Positions 1 through 7,961 of a stretch of 29,748 nt of DNA are shown piece by piece; positions within the stretch are counted from its first letter, which is position 1, and each line of letters opens with the position of its first letter. The stretch covers positions 1 through 29,748 of IMG/VR virus record IMGVR_UViG_3300020042_007480; one strand, 5' to 3'. The translations under genes were made by a program, and so were the position numbers. Source of the DNA: a virus (Duplodnaviria; Caudoviricetes). The notes beneath the pieces are model-generated. The model made no database searches. It was given only the letters and a program-made list of their open reading frames with translations, and had not been told where the DNA came from.

Positions 1-214
1 CGATGGGGATGCGCTTCCACTGCGAAACAGCGGCGCGACTTAACCCCAGCGCCTTGGATAGCGCAACAACCCCGCCAGCCTTGCTGGCAATCTCACGAAC
101 TCGTTTTTTATCCATTGTCCAAATTTAGCCGCACTTAACATAAACACTCAAGCCCTACTCAACCCCTAAAGGATCTGAGCCCTGCAGGCTCATAAACAAG
201 ACGACAATCGGATC
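1..214. repeat. Direct duplication of the cro 5' end and operator region (copy of ~565-778)
   Basis: 1-115 is identical to 565-679; 116-214 is a diverged copy of 680-778 and joins the CII-like gene at the shared ATCGGATCA. Confidence 0.9.
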
Positions 215-400
215 ATCGGGATTACCCGCCAACTTGCGCGAGAGATCGGACTGGCTCATATCCATATCGGCCGCGATGGTTTTCAGCGGGTTGCGGTTGG
301 TGTAGGCGCCGGTGCGAATGCAGTCCAGCAATGTCGGGAAACGCTCGATCAATCCAGGCTCGAAATCCAGGGTCATTTGGGTAGCGGAAACTAGGGACAT
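155..400 (-). CDS. CII-like HTH regulatory protein, probably truncated after ...GNPDDP
   Basis: HTH-like LKTIAADMDMSQSDLSRKL; lies directly downstream of cro; the C-terminal 17 aa derive from the duplicated segment. Confidence 0.6.
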   Translation of the reverse strand: MSLVSATQMTLDFEPGLIERFPTLLDCIRTGAYTNRNPLKTIAADMDMSQSDLSRKLAGNPDDPIVVLFMSLQGSDPLGVE

Positions 401-472: not shown

Positions 473-679
473 CTAAGACGCAATATCAGGCCGATCACCA
501 AATACATCCGGCCGCAACTCAATGCGCGAAACTCCGGTCAGGCGCTCCACATCCATTACGCGATCGATGGGGATGCGCTTCCACTGCGAAACAGCGGCGC
601 GACTTAACCCCAGCGCCTTGGATAGCGCAACAACCCCGCCAGCCTTGCTGGCAATCTCACGAACTCGTTTTTTATCCAT
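473..679 (-). CDS. cro: Cro-like (YdaS-type) HTH repressor
   Basis: 68 aa, GGVVALSKALGLSRAAVSQW HTH and ELRPDVF tail; divergent from cI. Confidence 0.85.
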   Translation of the reverse strand: MDKKRVREIASKAGGVVALSKALGLSRAAVSQWKRIPIDRVMDVERLTGVSRIELRPDVFGDRPDIAS

Positions 680-685
680 GGGCCA

Positions 686-727
686 AGTTTAGCCGCACTT
701 AACGGAATTAGTCAAGCGCTACTTAAC
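686..727 (-). promoter_or_regulatory. PR-like promoter with two 17-bp operators
   Basis: Operators GTTTAG-ccgca-CTTAAC (687-703) and GTCAAG-cgcta-CTTAAC (711-727); minus-strand TTGACT(715-710)-18 bp-TAAACT(691-686). Confidence 0.8.
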
Positions 728-761: not shown

Positions 762-1115
762 ATGACGACCATCGGATCAAGAATGAAACAACTCAGGATG
801 CATACCGGACTATCCGGCGAGCGCTTTGGCGAACTCGTGGGCGTGACCAAATCATCGGTATCTCAATGGGAAAGCGACGACACCATGCCGGATACCGCAA
901 TCCTGATAAAGTTAGCCGCGAAACTAGATTTTTCAATGGACTGGCTACTCACCGGAAATGGCTATGCGCCTGATGCAAACCGGCCCCTACTCGCGCTGAT
1001 GAAAGTTGCTGAAAAACTACCCGACGACGCATTGACCTACCTTACTAGGCAGGGCGATGATCTTGCACAATTGCTCAAACCCGGCGAAAATAAAAAAACA
1101 GGCAACGGCCAGTAG
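762..1115 (+). CDS. cI: CI-like XRE-family repressor with no S24 peptidase domain
   Basis: IGSRMKQLR...SGERFGELVGVTKSSVSQWE...MDWLLTG is a typical XRE HTH; divergent from cro. Confidence 0.85.
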   Translation: MTTIGSRMKQLRMHTGLSGERFGELVGVTKSSVSQWESDDTMPDTAILIKLAAKLDFSMDWLLTGNGYAPDANRPLLALMKVAEKLPDDALTYLTRQGDDLAQLLKPGENKKTGNGQ

Positions 1116-1575: not shown

Positions 1576-1617
1576 GTTTAGTGGCGCTTGACATGCTTAG
1601 TTAAGTAGGTCTAAACT
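1576..1617 (+). promoter_or_regulatory. PL-like early promoter with two 17-bp operators
   Basis: GTTTAG-tggcg-CTTGAC (1576-1592) and GTTAAG-taggt-CTAAAC (1600-1616); TTGACA(1588)-18 bp-TAAACT(1612); same layout as PR. Confidence 0.85.
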
Positions 1618-3711: not shown

Positions 3712-3890
3712 TCCAAACCGAAGGCGGCTCACCAAAACACATCGACCCCGTGCCACACGTCGCACGGGTGCCCAGCAAACGCGAAGCCGAAGCCGCATTC
3801 TGCCGCATGCTCGCTGCCTTGACCTACACCCAAGCCGACACCCTGGAAAACGATGTCGAAATCGTGAAGAGCTTTTTATGGAGCCGGTGA
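3705..3890 (+). CDS. Hypothetical protein
   Basis: GAGG RBS, MLIQTEGG... Confidence 0.6.
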   Translation: MLIQTEGGSPKHIDPVPHVARVPSKREAEAAFCRMLAALTYTQADTLENDVEIVKSFLWSR

Positions 3891-4180
3891 TTTATGGATT
3901 GCTGGGCGGCGTTGTTGGGATTTTTTTAATGCTCATCACAACCTGCGTGATCGGCAAAATGAACGAAGAGATACCAGAAAAACGGACACGCATACAAACC
4001 AGAAAAAACGCCGACAAGATCGGCATGGCGTACCGATGCGAGGCGTTGACTCTATCGCAAGCGGTGCTCAGGTTACGAGAAATCGAGGTTCCTGTGGAAT
4101 CTATAAACAGGATATTGCGCACGCGCGTTAACGCAAAAGTCAGCGGCGCCGGCACGGCGTCCGCTGGACTACCGGGTTAG
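3878..4180 (+). CDS. Hypothetical protein with N-terminal TM segment; reads through attC-A
   Basis: VIYGLLGGVVGIFLMLITTCVI; the last 16 aa are encoded by the attC. Confidence 0.6.
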   Translation: MEPVIYGLLGGVVGIFLMLITTCVIGKMNEEIPEKRTRIQTRKNADKIGMAYRCEALTLSQAVLRLREIEVPVESINRILRTRVNAKVSGAGTASAGLPG

Positions 4181-4182
4181 GG
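4126..4182 (-). other. attC-A recombination site (57 bp)
   Basis: Minus strand CCCTAAC-ccggt-AGTCCAGCGGACGCCGTGCCGGCGCCGCTGACT-tttgc-GTTAACG; unpaired G (~4167) and T (4160) when the plus strand folds. Confidence 0.9.
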
Positions 4183-4191
4183 GCGATTTAT

Positions 4192-4244
4192 TTTGATAGC
4201 GCACTACAAATAACTCTTGACATTGTTTGATTACGCACTACAAT
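4192..4244 (+). promoter_or_regulatory. Cassette-internal sigma70 promoter with tandem 18-bp operator-like repeats
   Basis: TTGACA(4217)-16 bp-TACAAT(4239); TTTGATAGCGCACTACAA (4192-4209) and TTTGATTACGCACTACAA (4226-4243). Confidence 0.75.
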
Positions 4245-4276
4245 AAGAACTGTACACAAACAAAACGGAGAGTGAA

Positions 4277-4474
4277 ATGAAAACAGCCTACGAACTTCTG
4301 ATGACCGCCCCGGATAGCCAAGTAAAGCGGGCACAGATCGCCTTTAAGGCGGTGGCCGATGGTCGGTGGCTTGACGCGGCGTACAGCCTGCGCAATGCGG
4401 CGAACGAAGAAACCGGCCAGTGGGCGAACGAAGCCCGCGAACTGGCGGAACACTGCGAACAGGTGGCGGCGTGA
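4277..4474 (+). CDS. Cassette 3 ORF1, small helical hypothetical protein
   Basis: GGAG RBS, 65 aa. Confidence 0.75.
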   Translation: MKTAYELLMTAPDSQVKRAQIAFKAVADGRWLDAAYSLRNAANEETGQWANEARELAEHCEQVAA

Positions 4475-4635
4475 TGCGCCGCTTTTTGTGCGCCATCGGG
4501 CTGCACCGATGGACATACCTGCCGAACACAAACGGCGGGCGGCCGATGCGCAGGGAGTGCTGTTGCGGAAAGAAGCAGGGTTGGAATTACGGCGTTGCGC
4601 GGGAGCACGGCGTGATTTTGTGGGAGGACGCATGA
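4474..4635 (+). CDS. Cassette 3 ORF2, small Cys/His (possibly Zn-binding) protein
   Basis: MRRFLCAIGLHRW...RECCCGK; TGATG and ATGA overlaps with neighbours. Confidence 0.65.
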   Translation: MRRFLCAIGLHRWTYLPNTNGGRPMRRECCCGKKQGWNYGVAREHGVILWEDA

Positions 4636-4817
4636 GCGCGCAACGCGGTGGCCCAGGGCGCGGCCAAGGGCGCAAGCCGATCAAGGAGGGGCAGGACACC
4701 GTGACGGTATCCCTACGCATGACTGAAGCACAACGCGACAAGCTGGCGCTGCTCGGTGGGGCTGAGTGGGTACGCCAGCGGATCGACAAGGCGAAAGCCC
4801 CTAACGATCAAACATAA
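4632..4817 (+). CDS. Cassette 3 ORF3, ribbon-helix-helix-like DNA-binding protein
   Basis: GGAGG RBS; RGGPGRGQGRKP arm, alternating TVTVSLRM strand, then two helices (AEWVRQRID). Confidence 0.7.
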   Translation: MSAQRGGPGRGQGRKPIKEGQDTVTVSLRMTEAQRDKLALLGGAEWVRQRIDKAKAPNDQT

Positions 4818-4859
4818 CCGGCTGGCTTTAGCCAGTCCGCGTTGATGGCCGTGTTAGGC
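4799..4859 (-). other. attC-B recombination site (61 bp)
   Basis: Minus strand GCCTAAC-acggc-CATCAACGCGGACTGGCTAAAGCCAGCCGGTTATG-tttgatc-GTTAGGG; unpaired G4844, C4840, T4836 in the plus-strand fold. Confidence 0.9.
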
Positions 4860-4873
4860 CAGAAAGGTGAAAG

Positions 4874-5101
4874 ATGAAACCGGAATTTAGTATGACGAGC
4901 GATAGCGCGGAACCGTTGGTAACAAGCTGCGAGGCACATTGGCGGTTTTCCGGTGGAGCCATGTCAATACGATTTGCGACTGGGCAGGATGCTTTTTCGA
5001 TGGGCAGGCTTGTTGATGAGGCTTATGCGGCGGGGTTAATTGACGGCAGGAAAGAAATTACAGATGCGGTGGCACGCACAGTCAAAGAGTTGAGTGCATA
5101 A
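4874..5101 (+). CDS. Cassette 2 hypothetical protein
   Basis: AAAGGTG RBS immediately after attC-B; the TAA stop lies inside the GCATAAC core. Confidence 0.7.
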   Translation: MKPEFSMTSDSAEPLVTSCEAHWRFSGGAMSIRFATGQDAFSMGRLVDEAYAAGLIDGRKEITDAVARTVKELSA

Positions 5102-5152
5102 CAAGAAAGATCAGCGACGCCGATAGGCGTCGGCTGGAATGTAGTGTTAGGC
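5096..5152 (-). other. attC-C recombination site (57 bp)
   Basis: Minus strand GCCTAAC-actac-ATTCCAGCCGACGCCTATCGGCGTCGCTGAT-ctttctt-GTTATGC. Confidence 0.88.
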
Positions 5153-5175
5153 ACGGCGATAAATAGGAGAGAGAA

Positions 5176-5358
5176 ATGAAAAGCACGCAGATCGAAGCGA
5201 AGGAAGTAAAAGTTGGTGATCGGGTTATTACCGACGAAGGAGCCGTTATTATGGTTACTGAAATTGGGAAGGGGATGCCGTACAACACGATTGAACTTAG
5301 ATGGCGTGGCGGGTGGTTTGCGATAAATCCTACCCGGCTCATTGAGCGGATGGTGTAG
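5176..5358 (+). CDS. Cassette 1 small beta-rich (SH3/KOW-like) protein
   Basis: AGGAG RBS; AKEVKVGDRVI motif; fills the cassette exactly. Confidence 0.7.
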   Translation: MKSTQIEAKEVKVGDRVITDEGAVIMVTEIGKGMPYNTIELRWRGGWFAINPTRLIERMV

Positions 5359-5420
5359 TGCCTAACTTAAATTCGACGACATCAAATGTCCGCGAATCCG
5401 GCGATGATGTCGCCTAACTC
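5358..5420 (-). other. Putative attI site
   Basis: Minus-strand GTTAGGC core (5366-5360) with no attC-type hairpin partner; second GTTAGGC direct copy at 5418-5412; immediately 5' of intI. Confidence 0.7.
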
Positions 5421-5446
5421 GGAAACTGAACACGTAGGAGCTTGAT

Positions 5447-6472
5447 ATGCAAGCACTTGCAGAAAACAACACGACACCATCAACCGTGTTATGCGACACA
5501 CCAGCCAAGCAGCCAAAACTGCTCGACAGAGTTCGCGATCGTCTGCGCGTCAAACACTACGCCTACCTCACCGAGCAAACCTACATCCACTGGATAAAGC
5601 GCTTCATATTTTTCCACGACAAACGCCACCCGCAAGAAATGGGTGCGCCGGAAGTCGAGGCGTTTTTGTCCTACCTCGCCACCGCACGCGACGTGTCCGC
5701 CAGCACCCAAAATCAGGCCATGCACGCCATCCTGTTTTTATATCGCGAAGTGCTGGAAATAAAACTCCCATGGCTCGACGGCATCACCCGCGCCAAAACC
5801 GCCAAGCGCCTGCCGGTGGTGCTAACCGTACCCGAAACGCAAGCCCTGCTGAGCCACACCAAAGGCACACCGGGCCTGATCGTCAAGCTGCTATACGGCA
5901 CCGGCCTGCGCTTGATGGAAGCCCTACGCCTGCGCGTCAAGGACATCGACTTCACCCGCCGAACAATCACCGTGCGCGGCGGCAAAGGCGACAAAGACCG
6001 CGTGACCATGCTGCCCGCATCGCTCATCGAACCGCTGCAAGCCCGCCTAGCCGTGCGGCGAAAAATGCACGACATCGACATCGCCACCAATCACGCCGAT
6101 GTCGAGCTGCCGCACGCCCTCGAACGCAAATACCCAAACGCCGGCAAAGAATGGGGATGGCAGTATATATTCGCCGCCGCTGGCTACAGCGCAGATCCGC
6201 GCACCGGCGTGATCCGGCGCCACCACATCCACGAAAAAACCATCCAGCGCCATGTGAAAGATGCAGCACGCGCCGCCGGCATCCACCAGATCGCAACACC
6301 GCACACCCTGCGCCATAGTTTTGCCACGCATCTGCTCGAAACAGGCACCGACATCCGCACCATCCAGGAACTGCTAGGCCACAGCGATGTTGATACGACC
6401 ATGATCTACACCCACGTGCTGAATCGCGGCCCTGGCGGCGTGCTGAGCCCGCTGGATAGAGTGATTGCGTGA
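5447..6472 (+). CDS. intI: Integron integrase (IntI-type tyrosine recombinase)
   Basis: KLLDRVR...HYAYLTEQTYIHWI N-terminal domain; LYGTGLR, GGKGDKDR, HTLRHSFATH, LLGH, TTMIYTHV catalytic motifs; IntI-specific insertion VELPHALERKYPNAGKEWGWQYIF; AGGAG RBS. Confidence 0.95.
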   Translation: MQALAENNTTPSTVLCDTPAKQPKLLDRVRDRLRVKHYAYLTEQTYIHWIKRFIFFHDKRHPQEMGAPEVEAFLSYLATARDVSASTQNQAMHAILFLYREVLEIKLPWLDGITRAKTAKRLPVVLTVPETQALLSHTKGTPGLIVKLLYGTGLRLMEALRLRVKDIDFTRRTITVRGGKGDKDRVTMLPASLIEPLQARLAVRRKMHDIDIATNHADVELPHALERKYPNAGKEWGWQYIFAAAGYSADPRTGVIRRHHIHEKTIQRHVKDAARAAGIHQIATPHTLRHSFATHLLETGTDIRTIQELLGHSDVDTTMIYTHVLNRGPGGVLSPLDRVIA

Positions 6473-6753
6473 CCCGATACAAAACCATCCGCCAGTTTGC
6501 CATCGAATCCGGCTACACGGAGCATGCCATTCGTGGCAAAATCCGCGACGGCATCTGGCTAGAGGGGCGAGTCTGGAAGCGAGCCCCGGACGGTCATCAA
6601 CTAATCGACATCGAGGGTTATCACCAATGGGTAGAGAACGGCAACGGACTGGCGTGCGACCGGCCTCGGCAAGCTCGATCCAAATCGCGTTCACCTATCG
6701 CGGCATCCCCTGCCGTGAGCGAATCAAACTCCAGCCCACCACCGCTAACCTAA
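6469..6753 (+). CDS. xis: Excisionase-like protein
   Basis: YKTIRQFAIESGYTEHAIRGKIRDGIWLEG...IDIEGYHQWVE; GTGA overlap with the intI stop; overlaps the int start. Confidence 0.8.
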   Translation: MTRYKTIRQFAIESGYTEHAIRGKIRDGIWLEGRVWKRAPDGHQLIDIEGYHQWVENGNGLACDRPRQARSKSRSPIAASPAVSESNSSPPPLT

Positions 6754-7814
6754 AGCGCGCCGAGCAACACCGTGGCGCGATACTCGACGCCATCGAGCGC
6801 GGCACATTCGACTACGCAAAAACATTCCCGGAATCGCCGAACAGATTTCTGTTCGCAGAACAAAAAGGCGCGGGGTACAAATTAGAAATCTATCTCGAAA
6901 CATGGCTAGGACGCCAGGCCGCACACCTCAAGGCCAGCACCCTCGACGACTATAAAAAAATCGTCATGCACACCCTGATCCCCGAGATAGGCCAAACCTA
7001 CATCACCGACCTCAAGCGCGCGCAGATCCGCGATCTGTGTGAAAAATCAACCGCGAGCAACAAGCGGCTATCAAATATCCAGAGCGTGCTGCGCAAAGCG
7101 CTGCACGATGCCATCGACGACGACCTGATCGAAACCAATCCGCTCTATGGCTGGAAATACGCCCGCAAAGAAGCGCCAAAAACAATCGACGACATCGACC
7201 CATTCACAGCCGAAGAGCAGACCGCAATCCTGAACGCCTGCCGCGAACCTCAATGCCGCAACCTATTCCAGTTTGCATTTTGGAGCGGTCTAAGAACATC
7301 AGAGCTAATCGCCCTGGAGTGGGGCGACATCGACTGGCAGCGCGGCATCGTGCGCGTGAGCCGCGCCAAAACCCAGGCCAGCGACACGGCCGAGGGAACC
7401 AAAACACGGCGCGGCACGCGCGACGTGAAACTGCTAGCGCCGGCCATATCGGCACTCACATCACAAAAAGCGCACACCCATCTAGCCGGCGGCGCCGTGT
7501 TCCAGAACCCACGCACTGGCGAGCCATGGACAGGAGACCAACCAATCCGCCACGGCGCATGGACGGCCGCTCTAAAAAAGGCCGGCATCCGCTACCGCCG
7601 CCCCTATCAAACGCGCCACACCTACGCCAGTATGATGCTCAGCGCCGGCGAATCGCCCATGTGGGTCGCCGCGCAAATGGGACATGCAGACTGGAGCATG
7701 ATCGGGCGCGTTTATGGGAGATGGATACGGGATGCGGCGCCGGAGGCTGGCAATAAAGCGGTAGAAATGTTCGGCGCACCGCCTAAAAAAGAGGCTGCGC
7801 TAAAGCTGCGATAG
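6627..7814 (+). CDS. int: Phage integrase (tyrosine recombinase with arm-binding domain)
   Basis: SIQIAFTYRG arm domain; WSGLRTSE, GTKT, YQTRHTYAS, QMGH, RVYGRW; probable start MGRERQ at 6627. Confidence 0.93.
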   Translation: MGRERQRTGVRPASASSIQIAFTYRGIPCRERIKLQPTTANLKRAEQHRGAILDAIERGTFDYAKTFPESPNRFLFAEQKGAGYKLEIYLETWLGRQAAHLKASTLDDYKKIVMHTLIPEIGQTYITDLKRAQIRDLCEKSTASNKRLSNIQSVLRKALHDAIDDDLIETNPLYGWKYARKEAPKTIDDIDPFTAEEQTAILNACREPQCRNLFQFAFWSGLRTSELIALEWGDIDWQRGIVRVSRAKTQASDTAEGTKTRRGTRDVKLLAPAISALTSQKAHTHLAGGAVFQNPRTGEPWTGDQPIRHGAWTAALKKAGIRYRRPYQTRHTYASMMLSAGESPMWVAAQMGHADWSMIGRVYGRWIRDAAPEAGNKAVEMFGAPPKKEAALKLR

Positions 7815-7961
7815 CTAGGCTATTCAGGGCTTATTTTATGGCAACATCAAAAACACAATATCAATTAAATCAATAAGATACTGGCGGAGAGGGCGGGATT
7901 CGAACCCGCTTTAAGCCTTTACTGGCGCGGCTTCCAGGGCATGGCTGCGATAAAGCTGCGA
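7793..7961. other. attP: tRNA-Ser 3'-end core (7882-7909) flanked by arm-type direct repeats
   Basis: Reverse complement of 7882-7909 is GCGGGTTCGAATCCCGCCCTCTCCGCCA (T-arm, acceptor strand, G-CCA); GGCTGCG(C/A)TAAAGCTGCGA at 7793-7811 and 7943-7961; AT-rich IHF-like tract at ~7855-7880. Confidence 0.88.

What the first reader, a model, noticed from the sequence alone, without database searches (positions are those of the whole stretch)
4126..5366. All cassette ORFs are inverted relative to their attC sites
Seen: in all three attC sites the extra L-box G (and the second unpaired base) lies in the right arm of the plus strand. By the established attC rule this makes the plus strand the recombinogenic bottom strand, so the array runs leftward from intI. 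Yet all five cassette ORFs are on the plus strand; in cassettes 1 and 2 the RBS sits just after the R'' box and the ORF fills the cassette. Known: ordinary cassettes read toward their attC and are transcribed from Pc near intI. Inference: this is a dedicated class of antisense cassettes expressed from the phage PL promoter (1588-1617) rather than Pc. They would be silent or antisense in a normal host integron, and the newest cassette would be farthest from the promoter, reversing the usual expression gradient.
Basis: partly seen in the sequence, partly recalled or inferred. Interest (0 to 1): 0.9.

Follow-up and report, generated by a model that had tools for sequence, protein, structure and literature searches.

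The report
Phage integron with backward-coded cassettes
A temperate phage carries its own gene-capture device (an integron) inside its early gene region, and the captured genes are written on the opposite strand to those of bacterial integrons, which suggests that phages keep a separate pool of swappable genes that only read correctly in a phage.

Summary
Observation confirmed. A model trained on bacterial attC sites hits all three window sites on the minus strand, while all five cassette genes lie on plus, the recombining bottom strand. IntI is intact; attI is conserved right of the crossover at 5365/5366. The layout is a class: 114 of 122 cassette intervals in viral loci are antisense, 0 of 33 in bacterial genome loci; 53 of 141 plus-strand ORFs match phage families, 0 of 106 minus-strand ORFs. 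Recent shuffling uses bottom-strand crossovers. The IntI lies in a virus-only clade without LexA box or promoter consensus. Corrections: three of the five genes sit in one cassette with its own promoter (4217-4244), so PL is not the only driver; a reversed expression gradient and silence in hosts are untested. Added here: related cargos often carry different attC bodies switched at the other R box (17 of 22 pairs), hinting at occasional top-strand exchange. No expression data. Not found in print in eight searches; this scan noted the layout before on other DNA (e1-3438400, e1-5359259). New variant of integron; interest 0.78.

The parts
473..679 (-). cro-like repressor gene
   Evidence: phrog_35, E 1e-9
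686..715 (-). PR-like promoter (TTGACT-18-TAAACT) with the same operator-like heptamer as PL
   Evidence: read from the sequence; consensus only
762..1115 (+). cI-like repressor gene
   Evidence: HTH_3 above cut-off, PHROG repressors
1588..1617 (+). PL-like early promoter (TTGACA-18-TAAACT), operator-like heptamer at 1600-1606
   Evidence: 10 of 12 consensus; design shared with PR; activity inferred
3878..4180 (+). last fixed early gene; its final 16 codons and stop lie inside the first attC; fixed left end of the array at 4131/4132
   Evidence: no attC found upstream
4126..4182 (-). attC C0 (top strand minus, recombining bottom strand plus); belongs to cassette 3; body shared by many phage cassettes
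   Evidence: core pattern in 48 viral stretches
4132..4804 (+). cassette 3 (673 bp, oldest): own promoter plus three small genes
   Evidence: same cargo as a cassette in L162 (homology stops at 4806) and L161
4217..4244 (+). internal sigma-70-type promoter (TTGACA-16-TACAAT) with a 10-nt direct repeat at 4200-4209 and 4234-4243
   Evidence: 11 of 12; conserved in L161, L162, L250; repeat read
4277..4474 (+). 65-aa phage protein of unknown function
   Evidence: phrog_34498 E 1e-25; 7 viral relatives
4474..4635 (+). 53-aa ORF in a variable middle slot
   Evidence: weakest coding score of the five; no family at 1e-5
4632..4817 (+). 61-aa small DNA-binding-like protein (ribbon-helix-helix is a lead only); stop lies in attC C1
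   Evidence: Atlas clusters at 0.96-0.97, mostly viral, unnamed; RHH clusters at 0.87; 10 synonymous to 2 non-synonymous codon changes vs L162
4799..4859 (-). attC C1, three unpaired bases, 7-nt left spacer; belongs to cassette 2
4805..5101 (+). cassette 2 (297 bp) with 75-aa ORF 4874-5101, whose stop is the TAA of the next crossover
   Evidence: one full-length homologue at 76%
5096..5152 (-). attC C2; belongs to cassette 1
5102..5365 (+). cassette 1 (264 bp, newest by position) with 60-aa ORF 5176-5358
   Evidence: 10 other proteins at E<=0.001, three full-length at 52-57%
5360..5420 (-). attI-like site, crossover AA|C at 5365/5366
   Evidence: conserved to the right and variable to the left across the clade; a contig of run X2 departs at 5367 with another cassette-like end
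5447..6472 (+). integron integrase IntI, intact, RBS but no promoter or LexA consensus
   Evidence: TIGR02249 474.6 bits vs cut-off 265; VchIntIA 2a3v E 5e-91
6469..6753 (+). excisionase
   Evidence: phrog_9668 E 3e-25
6627..7814 (+). phage integrase
   Evidence: Arm-DNA-bind_2 and Phage_integrase; phrog_1

Best explanation
This is a working phage-resident integron whose recombination is canonical but whose expression logic is inverted. Shown by sequence comparison: intI, attI and attC keep the normal relative polarity; cassettes are cut at AA|C on the plus (bottom) strand, each unit being attC body + RBS + gene, and enter next to intI. Shown: the cargo is phage-type and coded on the bottom strand across a virus-only IntI clade and several other phage IntIs. 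Inferred: the platform came from a betaproteobacterial-type chromosomal integron, lost Pc, Pint and the LexA box, and sits in the repressor-controlled early-left operon facing downstream so that intI is read from PL with xis and int. Anything inserted at attI then lies inside that transcript with its bottom strand as sense, so only bottom-strand genes are expressed and kept. Most cassettes are promoterless passengers of the early transcript; a few, such as cassette 3 here, bring their own promoter. Inferred purpose: a modular accessory-gene slot active on infection or induction, rich in DNA-modification genes that plausibly counter restriction.
For: Strand: controls. Class: 101 antisense, 8 canonical, 25 undecided of 134 intervals in 46 viral loci vs 0, 25, 8 of 33 in 15 genome loci; without the RBS term and with ORFs allowed past the interval 114, 2, 6 of 122 (L060 apart) vs 0, 26, 7 of 33. 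PHROG hits 53 of 141 plus ORFs vs 0 of 106 minus ORFs; best hits include 10 DNA methyltransferases, 3 Mom-like, 4 PAPS-reductase-like, 4 DHH. After C0-type sites an RBS and start follow on the bottom strand in 31 of 36 distinct cases, on the top strand in 0 of 36. Unit of movement: 5 of 5 pairs with >=98% identical cargo and different upstream neighbours keep the upstream attC body; 0 of 15 pairs sharing the upstream cargo keep the body; shared blocks end at AA|C. Upstream genes co-oriented in 35 of 37 loci. Clade of 54 rows, all viral, SH-aLRT 99. No Pint-like 0 of 38, LexA 0 of 38, Pc-like 1 of 38, against LexA in 3 and Pc-like in 5 of 10 chromosomal controls. The one canonical cassette in the clade (L064) has its own minus-strand promoter.
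Against: No RNA or recombination data; no RNA run was available. Promoter calls are consensus matches only, and the control regions scanned were longer than the phage regions. In this window an internal promoter, not PL, is the nearest driver for all five genes and intI. PL lies 2.5 kb upstream with terminator-like hairpins at 2880 and 4465 and three attC hairpins in the way (14 found vs 10.2 expected, so weak). Cargos 80-90% alike carry a different attC body in 17 of 22 pairs, which strict bottom-strand shuffling does not explain. Genes downstream of intI are co-oriented in only 24 of 43 loci, so the xis-int context is not general. None of the window's five cargo proteins has a named function. 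Pairs are not independent and part of the loci were selected by an attC pattern.
Confidence: 0.72

Rival explanations
1. The cassettes are ordinary and this integrase family has switched strand preference: it recombines the strand that looks like a top strand, so each gene is followed by its own attC.
For: Related cargos with different attC bodies keep the four bases after GTT in 15 of 20 pairs against 8.6% in random pairs, so crossovers at the other R box seem to occur; window cassette 3 and its L162 relative share sequence from the right R box, not from the left.
Against: The conserved attI lies at the right end with its AAC on plus; near-identical cargos travel with the upstream body in 5 of 5 pairs and never with the downstream body, 0 of 15; the integrase aligns without gaps of note to VchIntIA across the integron-specific insertion.
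Confidence: 0.07
2. Recombination and antisense coding are as described, but expression is not PL-driven: internal promoters such as 4217-4244 drive the array and intI in the lysogen, making the cassettes moron-like lysogenic conversion genes.
For: The internal promoter is 11 of 12, conserved in three other phages and flanked by direct repeats, with a small DNA-binding-like gene in the same cassette.
Against: Only 5 of 122 viral intervals have a plus-strand promoter at 10 of 12 or better; upstream genes are co-oriented in 35 of 37 loci; methyltransferase and Mom-like cargo fits lytic growth (inference).
Confidence: 0.15
3. The array is a fossil: host cassettes or attC repeats were captured once and phage genes arose or inserted between them by ordinary mosaic recombination; IntI plays no part.
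For: Many antisense arrays lack a nearby IntI (0 of 48 stretches within 2.6 kb); attC bodies match bacterial ones at about 80-92%.
Against: Breakpoints fall within a few bases of AA|C, one cassette is duplicated into first position (L077), cassette ends are complementary over 9 bases in cassettes 1 and 3, and IntI is intact and conserved across the clade.
Confidence: 0.06

Closest known systems
Canonical complete integrons (class 1; sedentary chromosomal integrons of Betaproteobacteria and Vibrio; PMC5027507, PMC4889954)
   Same: IntI family, attI next to intI, attC fold and polarity relative to intI, attC families (hits up to 53 bits with a bacterial model; 80-92% matches of attC size).
   Different: Genes on the bottom strand, attC at the 5' end of its gene, no Pc, Pint or LexA consensus, intI co-oriented with cargo inside a phage operon, phage-type cargo; no cargo-length DNA match between 111 antisense intervals and the genome or metagenome loci except the phage's own duplicate L171.
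[quoted passage not shown] 2023, PMC9892861)
   Same: attC arrays in phages; DNA methyltransferase cargo.
   Different: Their complete integrons are pieces of host or class 1 integrons; the TJE1 CALIN is canonical in my test (3 of 3 sites on the ORF strand); the text read does not describe antisense cassettes. I did not test their other CALINs.
Inverted-integrase integrons (Treponema and others; PMC4889954)
   Same: intI and cassette genes on one strand.
   Different: There intI is in the orientation of the attC sites and the cassettes are normal; here intI is opposite to attC as usual and the genes are reversed.
Single opposite-facing cassettes in bacterial arrays (Xanthomonas symE/sRNA-Xcc1, 10.1101/2025.06.18.660453; self-promoter toxin-antitoxin cassettes, PMC13108822)
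   Same: Gene not under Pc; cassette 3 has its own promoter.
   Different: These are exceptions within canonical arrays; here whole arrays are reversed and mostly promoterless (5 of 122 with a strong plus promoter).
Cassette inserted in opposite orientation by top-strand recombination (PMC5027507, Fig. 1D legend)
   Same: Gene faces intI.
   Different: That event inverts the attC with the gene; here all attC keep normal polarity to attI.

Membership tests
Complete integron | Integron integrase (IntI) with the family-specific insertion and intact catalytic set | tested here: met
   TIGR02249 474.6 vs 265; 2a3v alignment over residues 26-338; R155, K180, H286, R289, H312, Y321 invariant in 37 rows (their catalytic roles are recalled)
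Complete integron | attI next to the 5' end of intI | tested here: met
   motif found in 38 of 39 clade loci, conserved right of AA|C and variable left; by comparison, not by assay
Complete integron | attC sites with R and L boxes and extrahelical bases, bottom strand on the intI strand | tested here: met
Complete integron | Cassettes are mobile units cut at AA|C | tested here: met
Complete integron | Pc promoter near or in intI facing the array | tested here: inconclusive
   no minus-strand consensus at 9 of 12 in the window or in 37 of 38 clade loci, but the same scan finds one in only 5 of 10 chromosomal controls
Canonical (Pc-read) integron cassette | ORF on the attC top strand, reading toward its own attC | tested here: not met
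Canonical integron | intI under SOS control (LexA box) | tested here: not met
   0 of 38 clade loci vs 3 of 10 chromosomal controls, for the CTGW-N8-WCAG consensus only (recalled motif)
Complete integron | IntI recombines folded bottom-strand attC with attI | not testable with these tools
   needs the suicide-conjugation assay
Inverted-integrase integron | [quoted passage not shown] | tested here: not met
   intI plus, attC top strand minus; such arrays were seen as controls in L051, L096, L097
CALIN | attC cluster without an integron integrase | tested here: not met
   IntI is adjacent; related antisense arrays without IntI exist
Mis-inserted (inverted) cassette | attC inverted relative to attI | tested here: not met
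   all three attC have the polarity of attI

The most novel reading that the evidence does not exclude
Phages run a second, mirror-image cassette pool. Opposite coding polarity acts as a firewall: host cassettes (many of them anti-phage) land silent in a phage array and phage cassettes (many of them DNA-modifying) land silent in a host array, while both pools share attC bodies. Occasional top-strand crossovers at the second R box move attC bodies between genes, and insertions at secondary sites in the 3' ends of early genes (as at 4131/4132) turn resident phage genes into new cassettes, which would be an observable route of cassette genesis.
Probability: 0.3. Interest if true: 0.92.

Novelty: new variant of a known kind. 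Interest (0 to 1): 0.78.

Why it matters
Strand selectivity of attC is explained in the literature as the device that keeps cassette genes readable from Pc (PMC5027507). Here the same selectivity serves genes on the other strand, in a virus-only integrase clade controlled by a phage operon rather than SOS. If true, phages are owners of integrons and not only occasional carriers; metagenomic cassette surveys contain a separable phage fraction that can be told by ORF strand alone; and short, comparable phage arrays give a tractable system for the open question of how cassettes and their attC sites are first joined.

Tried and rejected
Rfam: no family in the window; no tRNA gene. Longest-ORF strand calling was too noisy in GC-rich DNA and was replaced by a composition score. 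Sequencing runs: no RNA holder listed; two DNA runs with shares of 0.10 and 0.09; laid contigs come from relatives and show no joint between attC sites, which is no evidence either way. Cluster look-up for named relatives could not be made, so the host is unassigned. Cassette 2 protein: no viral locus; C1 core pattern: 0 viral matches; cassette 1 protein: two weak partial loci only. Atlas search for the cassette 2 protein gave only 0.90-0.91 hits, a lead at best. GenBank phages hold no close IntI (9 records, all under 60%); virus Rctr41k has an IntI-like gene but no attC hit. Metagenome loci: 39 canonical, 7 antisense, 27 undecided of 73 intervals in 28 of 80 loci; of the 7, one duplicates L001, two look like wrong calls (L187, L199), four are phage-like and outside the main clade. 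Synonymous-change test on ORF 4277-4474 was mirrored by one minus frame and is not counted. The careful tree search did not finish; the quick tree is used. No structure or complex prediction was run: it would not bear on strand use.

Full report
Setting. The window is a single-contig temperate phage: cro and cI, an early operon on plus from a PL-like promoter to xis and int, then lysis, tail, head and terminase genes on minus. Between the last early gene and xis lies a complete integron: IntI 5447-6472 (TIGR02249 474.6 bits, cut-off 265; VchIntIA E 5e-91), an attI-like site and three attC sites.

Is the strand call right? Nivina 2016 (PMC5027507; part 1 of 7 and passages read) puts the extrahelical bases on the L'' arm, the 3' arm of the bottom strand, and cleavage at AA|C in R'. 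All three sites have them in the right arm of plus. My detector found only these 3 sites in the window and none in 20 shuffles. As an independent check I aligned 16 of 32 bacterial-type attC sites (those of 91 nt or less; four come from L060, a viral-collection locus that looks like a host integron), oriented by their own ORF, and built models with and without structure. Both hit the three sites on minus (35.9, 32.7, 24.8 bits). On annotated records the model put 7 of 7 hits on the strand of the annotated gene: four class 1 sites, which resemble some training rows, and three TJE1 sites, which do not. The conserved G after AAC on the bottom strand (PMC2727003, passages) is present on plus in two of three sites and on minus in none.

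Are the plus ORFs the genes? All five score positive for amino-acid composition; the four long minus ORFs score negative, including 5082-5342, which has no RBS and no family. The cassette 1 protein has full-length relatives at 52-57%, the cassette 2 protein one at 76%, the first cassette 3 protein is phrog_34498 and the third is conserved with 10 synonymous to 2 non-synonymous changes.

Is it a class? Every upstream attC array had its bottom strand on the intI strand, as in textbooks. After dropping five duplicate loci, ORF strand was antisense in 101, canonical in 8 and undecided in 25 of 134 intervals in 46 viral loci, against 0, 25 and 8 of 33 in 15 genome loci; 7 of the 8 come from L060. 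A rerun without the RBS term gave 114, 2, 6 of 122 and 0, 26, 7 of 33. My detector misses some sites that the model finds, so intervals undercount cassettes. PHROGs matched 53 of 141 plus ORFs and 0 of 106 longest minus ORFs (L060 rows left out of both); the named hits are mostly DNA methyltransferases (10), Mom-like (3), PAPS-reductase-like (4) and DHH phosphoesterases (4). In 80 metagenome loci, 28 were informative: 39 canonical, 7 antisense, 27 undecided. The window's IntI falls in a 54-row clade of viral sequences only (SH-aLRT 99, quick tree of 116 rows; 87 rows, 0.955, no genome row) beside betaproteobacterial chromosomal IntIs; other antisense arrays use IntIs from elsewhere in the tree. 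I ran no clade test, so several origins are suggested, not shown.

Which strand recombines? attI is conserved to the right of AA|C and variable to the left, fixing the crossover at 5365/5366 on plus; one contig of run X2 leaves the window at 5367 with a different cassette-like end. Blocks shared between phages start and end within a few bases of AA|C. Near-identical cargos with different upstream neighbours keep their upstream attC body in 5 of 5 pairs; cargos followed by different neighbours share the downstream body in 0 of 15. Cassette 3 recurs in L162 with homology ending at 4806. Against a strictly bottom-strand history: cargos 80-90% alike carry another attC body in 17 of 22 pairs, and 15 of 20 such pairs keep the four bases after GTT (8.6% at random); cassette 3 is one of them. 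Top-strand crossovers between two attC sites would give this, but fast divergence or gene conversion explains some pairs. The pairs are not independent and some loci were chosen by an attC pattern.

How is it expressed? No data; what follows is inference from consensus scans. PL and PR share a -10 hexamer, spacer length and an operator-like heptamer. Between attI and intI there are about 80 bases with an RBS and no promoter or LexA consensus in 38 of 38 clade loci; a Pc-like match occurs in 1 of 38; chromosomal controls gave LexA in 3 and Pc-like in 5 of 10 over longer regions. Genes upstream of the arrays are co-oriented in 35 of 37 loci, downstream in 24 of 43. So intI and most cassettes look like passengers of an upstream phage transcript. 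New cassettes do enter at the promoter-distal end, but whether expression falls along the array is unknown.

Relation to host integrons. Antisense cassettes share attC-sized matches (about 80-92%) with bacterial arrays but no cargo-length DNA match among 111 intervals, apart from a duplicate of the same phage. This fits two pools sharing sites but not genes, within a small sample. That host cassettes often encode anti-phage systems is from the abstract start and passages of 10.1101/2024.07.02.601686.

What is known. Qi 2023 (PMC9892861; parts 1-4 of 7 read, supplement searched for two terms only) reports phage integrons, CALINs and methyltransferase cargo but no antisense class in the text read; figures were not visible and may show strands. 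Inverted-integrase integrons are defined by intI versus attC (PMC4889954, passages). Single opposite-facing cassettes are known (10.1101/2025.06.18.660453, passages). Passages of PMC8876359, PMC4792948, PMC13108822, PMC13366799 and 10.1101/2025.02.12.637893 added nothing on this layout. Eight literature searches found no description; the library lacks most subscription journals and bioRxiv supplements are closed. This scan has noted the layout in other genomes, with and without IntI; I had reached the reading before looking, and a search for the body-switch idea returned nothing.

Verdict. Real, widespread in phages, apparently undescribed in print, mechanistically an integron with inverted coding polarity. 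The recombination logic is well supported by comparison; the PL-driven expression model is likely for the class but untested, and incomplete for this window. New variant of a known kind; interest 0.78.

Noticed in passing
window 1-215 and 565-779: The contig begins with a 215-nt copy (91% identical) of the cro gene start and PR region; either a real tandem duplication or a strain-mixing assembly artefact.
   Followed up: partly
window 7880-7908: tRNA-3'-end-like stretch just after the phage integrase, with phage genes on both sides: likely attP of an excised phage (resemblance recalled; ARAGORN finds no whole tRNA).
   Followed up: no
L015 3586-5133: Diversity-generating-retroelement parts (Avd, reverse transcriptase fragment, tail-protein-like domains) lie directly upstream of or within an antisense array.
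   Followed up: no
L064 6325-6997: The only canonical-facing cassette in the phage clade is a two-gene module with its own promoter, and its last 80 or so bases are repeated before the upstream attC.
   Followed up: partly
L034 array and IntI: An antisense phage array whose IntI groups with Thiobacillus-type chromosomal IntIs (support 99), i.e. a separate capture; L191, L206, L212, L239 and the L070/L077 groups also lie outside the main clade.
   Followed up: partly
L250-L297: One 57-nt attC body precedes at least 36 different cargos, with no IntI within 2.6 kb.
   Followed up: partly
viral loci L001-L081: 44 of 143 plus-strand cassette ORFs stop inside an attC and 20 start inside one.
   Followed up: partly
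window 4001-5500: GC skew flips to positive over the array while the flanking early genes are negative.
   Followed up: no
L298 (KX853513) 4680-5678: Virus Rctr41k carries an IntI-like gene (48%) annotated xerD, with no attC hit nearby.
   Followed up: partly
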